Shown here in pieces: positions 39,301 to 42,300 of a DNA stretch of 64,000 nt. Position numbers: made by a program. The stretch is from Escherichia coli (GTDB lineage Bacteria > Pseudomonadota > Gammaproteobacteria > Enterobacterales > Enterobacteriaceae). Within the stretch, counting starts at the first letter, position 1; every line of letters starts with the position of its first letter. The DNA lies in NCBI RefSeq assembly GCF_030013205.1, contig NZ_CP122648.1; one strand, 5' to 3'.

Positions 39301-42300
39301 GCGTCCGGGGTGTAAATCTGGCATCCCTACTACGCGCTGCATGTTGGGTAAATTTGCCGTGGTGTGTAATTGTTGGATCGCTAAACTCTCGATCCACAGG
39401 TCATCAGATGCGATGGTAAATACCGCATAGGATAAGGGACGAATATATTTGCCCATGTACCATTCCATTTATACTCGTCATACTTCAAGTTGCATGTACT
39501 GCGGCTGCGTTCGTTCACCCCAGTCACTTACTTATGTAAGCTTCTGGGGATTCACTCGCTTGTCGCCTTCCTGCAACTCGAATTATTTAGAGTATATAAA
39601 TATTAAAAATCAGGAAATGGCAGACGAATCCAGGGCAAGAAAAAAAGAATTAATCCTGGAAAGGTCTGCAAAGAGTCATTGATAAAGGATTTGTCATGAT
39701 TTACCTCCTTGCAGTTTGTGGAATAAGAAAACGCGCACATATTAGAAGGGCGTTATTTTCATTGCAAGCTGGATTTAATGTTGCGGTTTATAACGCATAT
39801 AAAAATTAATAAACCACGCTCCCCGGCATTCAACGCGCTGCTGCTTAACTGTCTGAAAACCATAACGTTCAAAAAAGGGTTTTGCGGTTATGCTGGCGTC
39901 CACCGTAAGTTCGGATTCAGACTTAATCAAAGGTTTTAACAAAGCGCTGGCAACCCCACGGCGGGTGTATTCAGGGTCAACAAATAACATATCGATATAA
40001 TGTTCAATGCGGGAAATAAAACCAACCGGTTGTGCATTAATGATCGCAACCCACACTTGTGATTTCGCGAGTTTCTCCTTCCAGCGAGATTCGTCAATCT
40101 GCGCCCAGGCGGCAATTTGTTGTGGTGAATAATGCTGACTGGCGGTCATCGTAACCGCTCTAATGAAAATAGCGCATAGTTGCTGAAAATCGCCAGGCTG
40201 ATAATCTCTTATTTGTATGTTATTCATAATATAAATTCAAAAACGCATGCGAAACGCTTCTGCCATTTTTCCAATTTTATGCATTTGGTTGTTATCTCGA
40301 GCCAGTTTATGAGGTTCAGGCTTCAGAATGGCAATGAGCAACCATGCTTGCTCATCAAACGCACCCTGACAATATACCAAATGCGCTTCGTCATTCGTTC
40401 TGCTGAATTGGCGCAACTGTGGCGGAAATGGATTATTCACATTTGCCAGATGAATATGAGCAACTCGCTCAAATTTGATTAATGGCCAGGTAAACGAGTC
40501 GTCGTAGAGTGCATCGCGACCAAATATATCTGGCAAAATACCGTCACGCTTATAGGAAATAAAATCCGCCGTTAACGCATCAAGTTCCTCTGCTGTAAGT
40601 TGCAGGCGAATAAGTTTTGTTTTGAATACCCGCATCCTTATTCCTTAAAGTCATTGAAATCATCATCCGTCATATCATTAAGATATTGTTCAGCGCGGCG
40701 TGTAATTTCCTCTAATCTTGCGGCACTCGGACGGAAGCGCGCCTTCACCAGTTTTTTCTCCTCTTGTTCTGCAAGCATGTCCATTAACGCTTCGAATGCG
40801 CTGGCACTTAAGAGATATCCTGCGGGGCGATTATTAGAAAGAACCGCAACCGGTTGATCAATAAAGTATTTTGCTGGATTTTTACGTAACTCAGTGATAT
40901 TGACCGATTTTTCAGCGAGAATTCGATGCATACAGTGATACCCTCATAATAATGCACACCAGAATATACATAATAGTATACATCATAATCCCAGCACCAG
41001 TTGTCTTTCCATTTGCGGGTCAAGCAACGTCACATGCAGCCCCACCAGCCGCACACCGCGCCCGCCGCGACGTTCATCCCAGGTTTTACGCGCGGTGGCA
41101 ATTAAGTCAGCTTTATTCAGCCGCGGCCAGACGTGCTCCTGAGTGGTTTGCTGAAAATCGTCGAACTTTAATTTCACCCCCTGGCGAGCAATCAGTAAAT
41201 CAGGTTTCACCTTTGCCAGACGGCGTTCAAGTTCCGGATACAGCCGCTCGATAATCGCTTCACATTCAGACCAGTGATGAATATCTTCCGCCATCGTGCG
41301 TTCCACGCCGACGGATTTTCGTAACCGTTCGCTGTTAACGTCGCGCTCGTCAATCCCCTGACTACGCTCCCACAAAATGCGGCCAAATTTGCCAAAACGT
41401 TTGAGCAGAGTCACCAGATCACACTTTTGCACATCACCGCAGGTCCGCAGCCCCATCGCTTCCAGTATTGCCGCCGAGACTTTGCCGACGCCGGGAATTT
41501 TTGCCAGCGGTAAGGTTTGCAGAAATGCCGGAACTTCTGCCGGCGTAATCACAAACTGGCCGTTGGGTTTATTCATGTCGGAGGCGATTTTAGCGAGAAA
41601 CTTTACTGGTGCCACGCCCGCAGACGCCGTCAGTTGCAGCTCGTTGAAGATTGTCTGGCGGATTTCCTGGGCGATGAGGGTCGCAGAACCGTGGCAATGG
41701 ACGCTATCAGTGACATCGAGATAGGCTTCATCCAGTGACAACGGTTCAATACGCGAGGTGTAGCGCGAGAAGATTTCACGGATATGATTTGAGGCTTCTT
41801 TGTAGGCGTCAAAGCGCCCCGGAAGCAAGGTGAGATGTGGGCATAATTTGAGCGCCATCCCAGTAGGCATAGCGCTACGTACGCCAAATTTACGCGCGGG
41901 ATAATTGGCGGTGCTGATCACCCCCCGACGTTCGCGGCTGCCGCCAATAGCAATAGGGATATCGCGCAGGGCGGGATTGTCGCGCATCTCCACTGCGGCG
42001 AAAAAGCAGTCCATATCCACATGAATGATTTTACGCATTGCTCACCTCTCAACACTGGTAAAGTATACAGTGATTTCAGGGTTTGAGAAATGCGTAAAGA
42101 TTCAGCATCTAGCGCGTTCGCTGCGAAAGCACCTGCTGCTTATCCAGCTTTTGCACCAGCGGCTGCACCACTTTATCCCCATGCTGACCAAAGTATTGAT
42201 ACAGCGTATCGGACGCACTTTTGGTCAGCACCATAATCTCAATGCGTCGGTTGCCCGCGCTTTGCGGATTTTTCGCGTCCAGCAGCATCTGGTCCGCCAT

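What the first reader, a model, noticed from the sequence alone, without database searches (positions are those of the whole stretch)
39469..39774. Long structured leader upstream of rtcB
The 300-bp region before rtcB contains several hairpin-forming segments (CCCCAG-tcacttacttatgtaag-CTTCTGGGG; GTTGCA/TGCAAC pairings) rather than a simple promoter. This could be a regulatory RNA, a REP-like element or a stress-responsive leader.
Basis: seen in the sequence. Interest (0 to 1): 0.25.

Follow-up and report, generated by a model that had tools for sequence, protein, structure and literature searches.

The report
ERIC repeat inside a ribosome-sensing leader

Summary
The CCCCAG and GTTGCA/TGCAAC hairpins are at the stated coordinates and fold far better than chance (z = -8). 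They are not a leader structure. Together they form one 127-bp ERIC/IRU repeat (39470-39596), a known dispersed element with a median of 11 places per E. coli genome. At this site it is full-length, shortened or absent depending on the strain.

The conserved element is the other half of the spacer, on the minus strand. It consists of:
- a TTGCAA-N17-TAATAT promoter;
- a perfect Shine-Dalgarno sequence;
- a 15-codon uORF (MTNPLSMTLCRPFQD);
- helices P1 and P2, which compete for the same GCAG;
- a segment complementary to the rtcB2 ribosome-binding site.

This module lies upstream of rtcB2-prfH in every orthologous locus I examined, from Escherichia to Proteus, Pseudomonas and Tahibacter, whatever the upstream gene. 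In P. aeruginosa the matching uORF is PA5471.1, the characterised stall-sensing leader of armZ-PA5470.

P2 is paired in all 25 distinct sequences, with compensatory changes at two of its six pairs. ERIC splits the module inside a loop.

The most likely function is a four-segment attenuator that turns rtcB2-prfH on when ribosomes stall at the start of the uORF. This is inferred, not shown. The ERIC part is already known. The leader is a new member of a known kind.

The parts
39470..39596 (-). ERIC/IRU repeat, 127 bp, with 7-bp terminal inverted repeats TATACTC/GAGTATA and TA termini.
   Evidence: The ERIC1R and ERIC2 primer sequences match at 39534-39555 (+) and 39512-39533 (-), one mismatch each (primer pair confirmed). 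Fold z = -8.3. Found in 5425 of 5426 E. coli genomes, median 11 places per genome. Full, shortened or absent at this site. A sub-threshold Rfam V_AS5 hit of 49.5 bits, against a gathering score of 96, covers it.
39739..39767 (-). Putative sigma-70 promoter of the leader: -35 TTGCAA (39767-39762), 17-nt spacer, -10 TAATAT (39744-39739). A GC-rich stretch GTGCGCG follows (39738-39732). The transcript start is expected near 39731.
   Evidence: TTGnnn-N17-TAnnnT with an exactly 17-nt spacer of unrelated sequence occurs in 25 of 28 distinct upstream sequences from Escherichia to Tahibacter. The window copy scores 8 of 12, one below the scan tool's cut-off. The start site is inferred, not mapped.
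39704..39710 (-). Shine-Dalgarno sequence AAGGAGG of the uORF, 6 nt before its ATG.
   Evidence: Read directly. AAGGRGG is conserved in the 14 aligned enteric leaders and in P. aeruginosa. It is weaker in Pseudomonas sp. YH-1 (AAGGAGA) and Tahibacter (AAGGAGC).
39650..39697 (-). Leader uORF of 15 codons plus TAA, encoding MTNPLSMTLCRPFQD. It is unannotated.
   Evidence: A uORF of 13-16 codons with its Cys six codons before the stop lies upstream of rtcB2 in all 29 loci tabulated. P. aeruginosa has MIQFSTLCRLRLA, which is PA5471.1 (described in PMC13041342). No feature is annotated here in five RefSeq strains or in K-12 MG1655.
39705..39714 (-). Segment 1: the 5' arm of helix P1, CUGCAAGGAG. 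It overlaps the uORF Shine-Dalgarno sequence.
   Evidence: It pairs with 39666-39675 (inverted repeat I4). 8-10 of 10 positions pair in all 29 loci. The core 8 pairs are kept but show little covariation.
39655..39675 (-). Segment 2, inside uORF codons 8-14. CUCUUUGCAG is the 3' arm of P1. GCAGAC...UCCAGG is the 5' arm of P2. The two arms share GCAG.
   Evidence: Inverted repeats I2 and I4. The P2 outer helix is paired in 100% of cells across 25 distinct sequences, and 2 of its 6 pairs show compensatory changes. RNAalifold predicts P2 on its own.
39613..39638 (-). Segment 3: UUGCCC, the 3' arm of P2 (CCUGGAUUCGUCUGC, 39634-39620) and the anti-RBS CCAUUUCC (39620-39613).
   Evidence: This segment can duplex with segment 2 (-21.5 kcal/mol, z = -5.6) or with the rtcB2 translation start region (-19.3 kcal/mol, z = -3.4). 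Both options exist in nearly all taxa.
39449..39466 (-). Segment 4: the rtcB2 translation initiation region. The weak ribosome-binding site GGAAUGG is at 39466-39460, the AUG at 39456-39454, then GGCAA.
   Evidence: PGAP start at 39456. Helix P3, between the anti-RBS and the ribosome-binding site, is predicted by RNAalifold and is about 85% paired. Opening energy is 9-16 kcal/mol.
38317..39456 (-). rtcB2, the release-factor-H-coupled RNA ligase (379 aa).
   Evidence: NCBIfam PRK09588 (636 bits) and TIGR03073 (618 bits).
37706..38320 (-). prfH, peptide chain release factor H. It overlaps the end of rtcB2 by 4 nt.
   Evidence: NCBIfam TIGR03072, 328 bits. RefSeq annotation of the identical strain.

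Best explanation
The spacer holds two things of different age.

It is a late, strain-variable insertion.

(2) Around it lies an old leader of the rtcB2-prfH ribosome-repair operon. It has its own promoter, a strongly initiated 15-codon uORF, and four RNA segments.

Proposed working (inferred):
- Segment 1 flanks the uORF Shine-Dalgarno sequence.
- Segment 2 lies in uORF codons 8-14.
- Segment 3 lies downstream of the uORF.
- Segment 4 is the rtcB2 ribosome-binding site and start codon.
- Segment 2 can pair with segment 1 (P1) or with segment 3 (P2), because both partners need its GCAG. Segment 3 can pair with segment 2 or with segment 4.

When the uORF is untranslated, or is translated smoothly to its stop, segment 2 is held in P1 or covered by the ribosome. 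Segment 3 then closes the rtcB2 start, and the operon is off.

When a ribosome stalls at the uORF start or in its first few codons, it covers segment 1. P2 then forms, segment 3 is withdrawn, and the rtcB2 start is easier to open. Colicin-E3-cleaved ribosomes are reported to stall at exactly this point. The operon is then on.

This is the logic published for the P. aeruginosa leader PA5471.1 upstream of armZ-PA5470. In enterobacteria it appears to act on translation initiation, with possible Rho or mRNA-stability effects, rather than on an intrinsic terminator.

ERIC sits in the loop between segments 3 and 4 and is probably a tolerated passenger.

The stated confidence is for the whole account. 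Taken separately, my estimates are about 0.97 that the hairpins are ERIC, 0.85 that the leader is related to PA5471.1, 0.6 that it senses ribosome stalling in E. coli, and 0.4 that the output is the translational switch described.
For: ERIC:
- Both ERIC-PCR primer sites are present back to back, with one mismatch each.
- The element is 127 bp with 7-bp terminal inverted repeats and TA ends, as listed for ERIC in PMC2229807.
- It occurs at a median of 11 places per E. coli genome.
- It is full, shortened or absent at this locus, and E. whittamii has the matching empty site.

Leader:
- The stretch carrying the Shine-Dalgarno sequence, uORF and P2 (alignment columns 67-186) is identical in five divergent E. 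coli strains, while the stretch just upstream of it varies.
- The same promoter, Shine-Dalgarno sequence, uORF, helices and ribosome-binding site lie upstream of rtcB2 in 29 loci tabulated. These include Limnobaculum, Providencia, Proteus, Pseudomonas and Tahibacter, where the upstream genes are unrelated.
- The P. aeruginosa uORF in that position is MIQFSTLCRLRLA. It has 13 codons, with Q3 = CAG and F4 = TTC, and starts 254 nt before the armZ start codon, matching the published description of PA5471.1.
- A profile HMM built from enteric leaders only finds the Pseudomonas sp. YH-1 leader end to end (E = 9e-9). It finds both halves of the P. aeruginosa leader in order (E = 0.008 and 0.002). In the window it hits 39724-39596 and 39472-39442, that is, both flanks of ERIC.
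- The P2 outer helix is paired in 100% of cells in 25 distinct sequences. Pair types are AU 22, GC 2, GU 1 at one pair and AU 15, GC 5, GU 5 at another. Slid controls reach only 13-41%. One of these changes turns Arg into Gly in the peptide while the pair is kept, so the RNA rather than the peptide is constrained.
- RNAalifold on an unguided MAFFT alignment predicts P2 and P3.
- Segment 3 duplexes with segment 2 (mean z = -4.1) or with the rtcB2 start region (mean z = -2.7) at similar energies.
- With a ribosome parked at the uORF start or codon 4, the rtcB2 start is 2-5 kcal/mol easier to open than with a ribosome at codon 8 or the stop. This holds in about 10 of the 14 enteric leaders modelled.

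Literature:
- E. coli K-12 ykfJ, the rtcB2 remnant, is reported to be inducible by 4-azaleucine (PMC3516279).
- E3-damaged ribosomes stall at the start codon (PMC13166195).
Against: - No transcript start, ribosome footprint or reporter data for E. coli were available.
- The uORF is not in the one E. coli small-ORF supplement I could search.
- The leader without ERIC does not fold better than shuffles (z = -1.6).
- The window promoter scores only 8 of 12 and is missed by the consensus scan.
- P1 and P3 are conserved in sequence but have little covariation, so they could be conserved for other reasons.
- The modelled difference between the untranslated RNA and early stalling is small in E. coli (about 1.3 kcal/mol). 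It is absent in the K. oxytoca group and in Pseudomonas.
- In the ERIC-bearing window allele, a ribosome parked at the uORF start codon does not lower the opening energy (12.6 against 10.5 for the free RNA).
- P3 stays formed in every modelled state.
- The published Pseudomonas mechanism is transcription termination, and no terminator is detectable in E. coli.
- My anchor for the P2 3' arm was a sequence motif (G[CT]C[CT]GC), which limits the mismatches that could have been observed.
Confidence: 0.65

Rival explanations
1. ERIC itself is the regulator. Once transcribed into the rtcB2 5' UTR, its long hairpin is cut or bound (RNase E or RNase III) and sets mRNA stability or translation, as reported for ERIC copies in Yersinia.
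For: ERIC lies 3 nt upstream of the rtcB2 ribosome-binding site and must be transcribed with it. It is very stable (-50.6 kcal/mol). A review reports orientation-dependent effects of ERIC on the stability of neighbouring transcripts (PMC2229807).
Against: ERIC is absent or shortened at this site in most E. coli genomes sampled, judging from the spread rows and. It is also absent from most other genera, while the operon and leader are kept. Modelled opening of the rtcB2 start is similar with and without ERIC for most ribosome positions, though not for a ribosome at the start codon. Any ERIC effect would come on top of the leader, not replace it.
Confidence: 0.15
2. The leader works by premature transcription termination, as published for P. 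aeruginosa, and not by masking the ribosome-binding site. Termination would be Rho-dependent on the C-rich, G-poor untranslated stretch, or intrinsic.
For: The published PA5471.1 model is transcription attenuation. Induction of ykfJ by 4-azaleucine is reported only in a review, which does not say how it was measured. Tahibacter has a clean terminator-like hairpin right after the uORF. The stretch after the E. coli uORF is pyrimidine-rich.
Against: No intrinsic terminator was found in 39300-39950. Only 60-82 nt separate the uORF stop from the rtcB2 AUG in most enterics, which is short for Rho loading. Segment 3 is complementary to the rtcB2 start region itself.
Confidence: 0.3
3. Nothing here is regulatory. 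The spacer is a promoter, a ribosome-binding site and junk, and the short ORF and helices are by-products of sequence conservation.
For: There is no experimental evidence in E. coli. The leader's fold is not significant on its own. The uORF peptide is poorly conserved.
Against: The uORF keeps its frame, its length (13-16 codons) and the register of its stop across families and orders. There are compensatory changes in P2. The module travels with the operon into unrelated contexts. The homologous element is experimentally regulatory in P. aeruginosa.
Confidence: 0.07
4. The functional product is on the plus strand: an antisense small RNA or a 37-aa protein (39697-39810) overlapping the end of yafP.
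For: The plus strand of 39597-39740 folds somewhat better (z = -2.8). There is a weak Rfam STnc350 match at 39691-39763 (+), E = 1.5. The plus-strand ATG is preceded by AAGGA.
Against: The Rfam hit is 19.7 bits against a gathering score of 60. From reading the sequence shown, the K. oxytoca plus-strand frame stops after 7 codons. All conserved features (Shine-Dalgarno sequence, ATG, stop, link to rtcB2) make sense only on the minus strand.
Confidence: 0.03

Closest known systems
PA5471.1 leader peptide of the P. aeruginosa armZ (PA5471)-PA5470 (prfH) operon (Morita et al. 2009, as described in PMC3516279, PMC12057347 and PMC13041342)
   Same: It controls the orthologous operon, an RtcB2-family ligase plus PrfH. 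It is a short uORF behind a strong Shine-Dalgarno sequence, with the same CUUUGCAG core and its Cys six codons before the stop. It has the same P2 5' arm (GCAGGC), a matching GUCUGCC 3' arm and an AUGGAUUGG ribosome-binding site. It has a TTGCGC-N17-TAGGAT promoter. An enteric-only profile detects both of its halves. In the published logic, early ribosome stalling turns the operon on.
   Different: The E. coli uORF has 15 codons, not 13. The distance from the uORF stop to the start of the gene is 60-82 nt in most enterics (193 nt here because of ERIC), against 212 nt. No intrinsic terminator is detectable, so the output is probably translational. ArmZ's extra role as anti-repressor of MexZ has no known counterpart in E. 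coli. The E. coli element is unannotated and untested.
[quoted passage not shown] 1991; reviewed in PMC2229807)
   Same: 127 bp; imperfect palindrome; 7-bp terminal inverted repeats; TA termini; both ERIC-PCR primer sites; dispersed intergenic copies; presence/absence and shortened forms.
   Different: Nothing material. This is a typical copy. Its only peculiarity is where it landed: in a loop of a conserved leader, 3 nt from a ribosome-binding site.
Classical leader-peptide attenuators: trpL four-segment transcription attenuation, and ermC/cat translational attenuation
   Same: Four segments with mutually exclusive 1:2 / 3:4 and 2:3 pairings, read out through the position of a ribosome on a short uORF. 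As in ermC, the last segment is the ribosome-binding site of the regulated gene.
   Different: Segment 1 is the flank of the uORF's own Shine-Dalgarno sequence and start, not an internal run of regulatory codons. What would be sensed is dwell at initiation or early elongation in general, not a specific amino acid or a specific drug-peptide combination.
toiL-topAI antibiotic-sensing uORF of E. coli
   Same: A uORF in E. coli that reports ribosome stalling caused by diverse translation inhibitors and unmasks a downstream ribosome-binding site.
   Different: Unrelated sequence and a different operon. No homology was tested.

Membership tests
ERIC / IRU repeat | About 127 bp, an imperfect palindrome folding into one long hairpin | tested here: met
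   39470-39596 is 127 bp. One hairpin, -50.6 kcal/mol, z = -8.3.
ERIC / IRU repeat | Conserved central core carrying the ERIC1R and ERIC2 primer sites back to back | tested here: met
   Matches at 39534-39555 (+) and 39512-39533 (-), one mismatch each, with none expected by chance. The primer pair is confirmed in 246 papers.
ERIC / IRU repeat | 7-bp terminal inverted repeats and 5'-TA-3' termini | tested here: met
   TATACTC...GAGTATA. The features are as tabulated in PMC2229807.
ERIC / IRU repeat | Many dispersed copies in enterobacterial genomes | tested here: met
   5425 of 5426 E. coli genomes; median 11 places per genome, range 2-20.
ERIC / IRU repeat | Insertion polymorphism, including internally deleted short forms | tested here: met
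   Full in the window and K-12. About 55 bp in STEC2018-607 and 23CRST025. Absent in MS14387, SCPM and E. whittamii.
PA5471.1-type leader of rtcB2(armZ)-prfH operons | Lies directly upstream of, and on the same strand as, an RtcB2-family (PRK09588 / TIGR03073) gene followed by prfH | tested here: met
   The same arrangement is seen in the orthologous loci whose gene content was checked.
PA5471.1-type leader of rtcB2(armZ)-prfH operons | Short uORF (13 aa in P. aeruginosa) with its own Shine-Dalgarno sequence | tested here: met
   AAGGAGG, 6 nt, then ATG; 15 codons. 13-16 codons in all 29 loci tabulated.
PA5471.1-type leader of rtcB2(armZ)-prfH operons | Sequence relatedness to PA5471.1 itself | tested here: met
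   An enteric-only profile hits the P. aeruginosa uORF (E = 0.008) and the 3' module (E = 0.002) in order, and the Pseudomonas sp. YH-1 leader end to end (E = 9e-9). The uORFs share the CUUUGCAG(G/A)C core and the register of the stop. The P. aeruginosa E-values are modest.
PA5471.1-type leader of rtcB2(armZ)-prfH operons | Alternative RNA pairings that include a transcription terminator (segments 3:4) | tested here: not met
   Alternative pairings are present, and P2 is supported by covariation. No intrinsic terminator was found in the E. coli leader. The 3:4 pairing is with the rtcB2 start region instead.
PA5471.1-type leader of rtcB2(armZ)-prfH operons | The uORF is translated, and its translation state controls the downstream genes | not testable with these tools
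   Only indirect evidence: frame and length are conserved. The uORF is not listed in the one E. coli small-ORF supplement searched.
PA5471.1-type leader of rtcB2(armZ)-prfH operons | Induction by agents that disturb translation | not testable with these tools
   Second-hand literature only: K-12 ykfJ is reported inducible by 4-azaleucine (PMC3516279 citing Morita 2006). The primary paper is not held.
Rfam RNA families (any) | Match reaching a family's gathering score | tested here: not met
   In window 38300-40300 the best hit is V_AS5 at 49.5 bits against 96, over ERIC, and nothing covers the leader. The P. aeruginosa leader region also has no match.

The most novel reading that the evidence does not exclude
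The conserved uORF leader is the missing damage sensor of the RtcB2-PrfH ribosome-repair system. Ribosomes whose 16S rRNA has been cut in the decoding centre (by colicin E3, cloacin or CdiA-type toxins) still initiate on the perfect Shine-Dalgarno sequence but cannot elongate. They park on segment 1 and flip the leader to the P2 state, which turns on the enzymes that release and re-ligate them. PrfH would then clear the parked ribosome and reset the switch, so the damaged ribosome would be both the signal and the substrate. This would unite the P. aeruginosa ArmZ/MexXY antibiotic response and E. coli colicin resistance as one ancient gammaproteobacterial circuit, read out by transcription in pseudomonads and by translation in enterics.
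Probability: 0.3. Interest if true: 0.75.

Novelty: new member of a known kind. Interest (0 to 1): 0.45.

Why it matters
How E. coli regulates rtcB2-prfH is not addressed in the RtcB2-PrfH papers I could read. None of the four mentions a leader, and their only uses of 'promoter' are vector promoters or reference titles. A conserved stall-sensing leader gives a concrete, testable answer: the operon is switched on by ribosomes that initiate but cannot elongate.

It also links two literatures that do not cite each other. One is ArmZ/MexXY aminoglycoside resistance in P. aeruginosa. The other is ribosome repair after colicin E3 in E. coli.

There are practical consequences too:
- The uORF should be annotated.
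- ERIC should be masked before intergenic structure is interpreted. A published riboswitch scan flagged this spacer because of it.
- Natural alleles with full, shortened or no ERIC offer a ready-made test of whether a repeat inserted into a regulatory loop changes the switch.

Tried and rejected
- Rfam at a permissive threshold: nothing on the leader, only a sub-threshold V_AS5 hit on ERIC and noise.
- Consensus promoter and terminator scan: 0 sites. The promoter was accepted only after the phylogenetic footprint.
- Upstream ATG at 39468 (the 383-aa ORF) as the true rtcB2 start: rejected. The ATG is missing in Citrobacter and Intestinirhabdus and is followed by a stop in Providencia. The NCBIfam model also starts at residue 5.
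- Arrest-peptide idea for the conserved C-R-P-F-Q-D tail: rejected. The variable positions are non-synonymous and fall in unpaired RNA positions, and an Arg-to-Gly change is compensated in the RNA.
- Intrinsic terminator formed by P2 plus the U-run: rejected. The U-run starts 8 or more nt after the stem.
- E. coli-specific pairing of the 5' UTR sequence UUAUUCCA with the ribosome-binding site, seen in the minimum-energy fold: not conserved in other genera.
- Searches for the uORF in the literature and in small-ORF data: the peptide string is in no paper. It is absent from the Stringer et al. supplement. The Weaver et al. supplement is not held.
- Morita 2006 and 2009 are not held.
- The cluster look-up refuses peptides under 20 aa.
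- P0214 (Chromobacterium) has no contig on record.
- The first MAFFT alignment (A2) misaligned the Shine-Dalgarno flank and the Proteus and Providencia 3' arms. I therefore built a gap-free, anchor-based alignment (A3) for pair counting.
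Full report
**What is at the coordinates.**
The window is an E. coli chromosome segment. 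On the minus strand it reads dinB-yafN-yafO-yafP, then a 306-bp spacer, then rtcB2-prfH and a small hydrolase gene. pepD is on the plus strand. Its annotated start is 39456. The quoted hairpins exist: CCCCAGTCACTTAC/GTAAGCTTCTGGGG at 39518-39549, and 25-nt arms at 39470-39494 and 39572-39596 that contain GTTGCA/TGCAAC.

**The hairpins are one ERIC element.**
- The block 39470-39596 is 127 bp and folds into a single long hairpin. It scores -50.6 kcal/mol, z = -8.3, and none of 200 shuffles does as well.
- The two standard ERIC-PCR primer sequences match back to back at 39534-39555 (+) and 39512-39533 (-), with one mismatch each. The primer pair is verified in 246 papers.
- The length, the 7-bp terminal inverted repeats (TATACTC/GAGTATA) and the TA ends are those tabulated for ERIC/IRU/RU-1 (PMC2229807).
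- The 127 bp occur in 5425 of 5426 complete E. coli genomes, at a median of 11 places per genome.
- At this locus the element is polymorphic. It is full-length in the window and K-12, about 55 bp in STEC2018-607 and 23CRST025, and absent in MS14387. E. whittamii has the matching empty site.
- The evenly spaced rows suggest roughly 30% full, 40% shortened and 25% empty sites. This is a rough estimate from that sampling.
- Rfam has only a sub-threshold hit over it: V_AS5, 49.5 bits against a gathering score of 96.

**What is conserved instead.**
In the five-strain alignment, the stretch carrying the Shine-Dalgarno sequence, uORF and P2 (columns 67-186) is invariant, while the stretch just upstream varies. 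Read on the minus strand, the spacer contains, in order:
- TTGCAA (39767-39762), 17 nt, TAATAT (39744-39739), then a GC-rich stretch;
- AAGGAGG (39710-39704);
- ATG (39697) opening a 15-codon ORF, MTNPLSMTLCRPFQD, ending in TAA (39650);
- inverted repeat I4 (helix P1), which pairs the Shine-Dalgarno flank CUGCAAGGAG with CUCUUUGCAG in codons 8-11;
- inverted repeat I2 (helix P2), which pairs GCAGACCUUUCCAGG, the last codons of the uORF, with CCUGGAUUCGUCUGC (39634-39620);
- CCAUUUCC (39620-39613), which is complementary to the rtcB2 ribosome-binding site GGAAUGG (39466-39460).

ERIC lies between those last two elements.

**Orthologous loci.**
I fetched rtcB2 loci in three ways: a genome scan, exact-protein look-ups and one metagenome pattern scan. 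Every orthologous locus I examined has the same module upstream of rtcB2. It consists of a promoter-like TTGnnn-N17-TAnnnT, an AAGGRGG-type Shine-Dalgarno sequence, a uORF of 13-16 codons with its Cys six codons before the stop, P1, P2, and the ribosome-binding site.
- The promoter has an exactly 17-nt spacer in 25 of 28 distinct upstream sequences.
- The Shine-Dalgarno sequence is weaker in Pseudomonas sp. YH-1 and Tahibacter.

Examples of the uORF:

| Taxon | uORF peptide |
|---|---|
| Salmonella | MTLYSLNALCRHFQH |
| K. oxytoca | MNTDFQNALCRPSQE |
| Cronobacter | MTYTTLITLCRLTQE |
| Limnobaculum | MQQIQLNILCRRIQD |
| Proteus | MTTINMNTLCGQSQK |
| Pseudomonas sp. YH-1 | MQALITLCRSRLA |
| Tahibacter | MKLVTCLCRLSLG |

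In Limnobaculum, Providencia, Proteus, Pseudomonas and Tahibacter the upstream genes are unrelated to dinB or yafP. The module therefore belongs to the operon and not to the neighbourhood.

**Link to a known system.**
The literature search showed that P. aeruginosa armZ (PA5471) is an RtcB2-family protein co-transcribed with PA5470 (prfH). The pair is controlled by a 13-aa leader peptide, PA5471.1. Complete translation of the leader allows a terminator to form. Ribosome stalling turns armZ on, whether caused by ribosome-targeting antibiotics, suhB or cca mutations, or a Q3 amber codon (PMC3516279, PMC12057347, PMC13041342).

In the P. aeruginosa locus I fetched, the uORF in the homologous position is MIQFSTLCRLRLA. 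It has 13 codons, with codon 3 = CAG and codon 4 = TTC, and starts 254 nt before the armZ start codon. This is the published description.

A profile HMM built only from enteric leaders gave these results:
- It finds the Pseudomonas sp. YH-1 leader end to end (E = 9e-9).
- It finds the two halves of the P. aeruginosa leader in order (E = 0.008 and 0.002).
- In the window it hits 39724-39596 (E = 3e-30) and 39472-39442 (E = 2e-4), exactly the two flanks of ERIC.

The E. coli element is therefore a relative of PA5471.1, split by a repeat. The papers on E. coli RtcB2-PrfH that I could read say nothing about a leader. Their only uses of 'promoter' are vector promoters or reference titles. No paper holds the peptide string. 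K-12 and RefSeq annotate nothing here.

**Structure evidence.**
I built a gap-free alignment of 25 distinct leaders from sequence anchors (A3).
- The six pairs of the P2 outer helix are standard pairs in 100% of cells.
- Two of those pairs show changes on both sides: AU 22, GC 2, GU 1, and AU 15, GC 5, GU 5.
- When the partner is slid by 1-3 columns, pairing drops to 13-41%.
- One of these changes (A to G in Proteus and Providencia) turns the Arg codon into Gly while the pair is kept. Selection therefore acts on the RNA and not the peptide.
- P1 keeps 8-10 of 10 pairs in all loci but hardly covaries.
- P3, between the anti-RBS and the ribosome-binding site, is about 85% paired.
- From my reading, P3 shows one consistent swap: CCAUUUCC/GGAAUGG in the Escherichia-Salmonella-Citrobacter group against CCA(C)AUCC/GGAUUGG elsewhere.
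- RNAalifold on the unguided MAFFT alignment predicts P2 and P3 independently.
- Large insertions sit only in loops. ERIC is in the P3 loop in Escherichia and K. spallanzanii. About 165 nt in Intestinirhabdus and about 150 nt in P. aeruginosa sit in the P2 loop.

**Mechanism (inferred).**
P1's 3' arm and P2's 5' arm share GCAG, so they exclude each other. The segment holding P2's 3' arm can duplex either with the uORF arm or with the rtcB2 start region. For E. coli the energies are -21.5 against -19.3 kcal/mol. Across taxa the mean z-scores are -4.1 and -2.7. This gives a four-segment scheme: 1:2 plus 3:4 is off, and 2:3 is on.

Constraint folding agrees in direction:
- With a ribosome footprint on the uORF start or codon 4, the rtcB2 start costs 2-5 kcal/mol less to open than with a ribosome at codon 8 or the stop. 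This holds in about 10 of the 14 enteric leaders modelled.
- For ERIC-less E. coli the values are about 9 against 12.3-13.5 kcal/mol.
- The gain over the untranslated RNA is smaller, about 1-3 kcal/mol.
- The effect is absent in the K. oxytoca group and in Pseudomonas.
- In the ERIC-bearing window allele, only a stall at codon 4 lowers the cost. A ribosome at the start codon does not (12.6 against 10.5 for the free RNA).

No intrinsic terminator is detectable in E. coli. I therefore favour translational masking, possibly followed by Rho or mRNA-decay effects, over the terminator model published for Pseudomonas.

The signal would be ribosomes that initiate but do not elongate. This is the behaviour reported for colicin-E3-cleaved ribosomes, which accumulate at the start codon (PMC13166195). 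It is also consistent with the reported induction of K-12 ykfJ by 4-azaleucine.

Steps that are shown: the identity of ERIC, conservation of the module, its relatedness to PA5471.1, and covariation in P2. Steps that are inferred: the transcript start, translation of the uORF in E. coli, the direction of the switch, and the inducers.

**Role of ERIC.**
ERIC is inserted between segments 3 and 4, 3 nt upstream of the ribosome-binding site. For most modelled ribosome positions the opening energy is similar with and without it. The exception is a ribosome at the start codon, noted above. ERIC is most simply a tolerated passenger in a loop. An effect on mRNA stability or on the timing of co-transcriptional folding cannot be excluded, and the natural alleles allow a test.

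**Verdict.**
The ERIC part is already known and ordinary. The leader is a new, unannotated member of a known kind, the PA5471.1-type stall-sensing leader of rtcB2/armZ-prfH operons, and probably has a translational rather than transcriptional output.

Interest is moderate (0.45). The finding supplies a testable regulatory mechanism for the E. coli ribosome-repair operon and connects it to the P. aeruginosa ArmZ/MexXY response, but it rests on comparative evidence only.

Noticed in passing
window 39739-39744 (-); L002, L005 and L003 at the same site: The leader's -10 hexamer varies among E. coli strains. It is TAATAT here and TAGTAT in MS14387, STEC2018-607, SCPM and E. whittamii. It is TGGTAT in the two strains whose rtcB2-prfH is truncated (K-12-like 2_0 and 23CRST025). 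This could be promoter decay after loss of the operon, but the sample is far too small to say.
   Followed up: partly
L013 (K. spallanzanii), about 60 nt just upstream of the rtcB2 ribosome-binding site (gene starts at 3001): A short ERIC-like insert sits at the same relative position, between the anti-RBS and the ribosome-binding site, as in Escherichia but in a different genus. It suggests an insertion hot spot or an old insertion that has been lost repeatedly.
   Followed up: no
L016 (Intestinirhabdus), about 1765-1930; L023 (P. aeruginosa), about 1790-1940: Unrelated extra sequence of about 165 nt and about 150 nt lies inside the P2 loop, so the two P2 arms are 200 or more nt apart yet still complementary.
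   Followed up: partly
window 37135-37644 (-) and 36837-37118 (+): A 'metal-dependent hydrolase' gene follows prfH, and a 93-aa hypothetical gene lies between it and pepD. MS14387 shares both genes. Both are absent in K-12 and STEC2018-607. The hydrolase has no NCBIfam match.
   Followed up: no
L004 (E. coli STEC2018-607) 2701-4205: This strain lacks the yafN-yafO toxin-antitoxin pair, and dinB overlaps yafP directly. In MS14387 yafO has an internal stop.
   Followed up: no
window 39697-39810 (+) and 39691-39763 (+): A 37-aa plus-strand ORF has an AAGGA six nt before its ATG and shares the palindromic TCATGA with the uORF start. There is also a weak Rfam STnc350 match, 19.7 bits against a gathering score of 60. 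Neither looks conserved outside Escherichia.
   Followed up: partly
alignment A2, columns 33-37 with 166-170 (window 39699-39695 with 39457-39453): RNAalifold pairs the uORF start UCAUG with the rtcB2 start (C/U)AUGG in all 14 sequences. CAUG is self-complementary, so this may be trivial.
   Followed up: no
L024 (Tahibacter soli), about 1915-1945: A clean terminator-like hairpin, GCGGCGTCG-TCC-GACGCCGC followed by TTTCGCGTGTT, lies directly after the uORF stop. It fits transcription attenuation in that lineage, unlike the enterics.
   Followed up: no
K-12 253317-253416 (corresponds to window about 39520-39619): A published structural-entropy scan for riboswitches lists this 100-nt window upstream of prfH/ykfJ as hit 98. 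The stretch is mostly the ERIC element (PMC4448311).
   Followed up: yes
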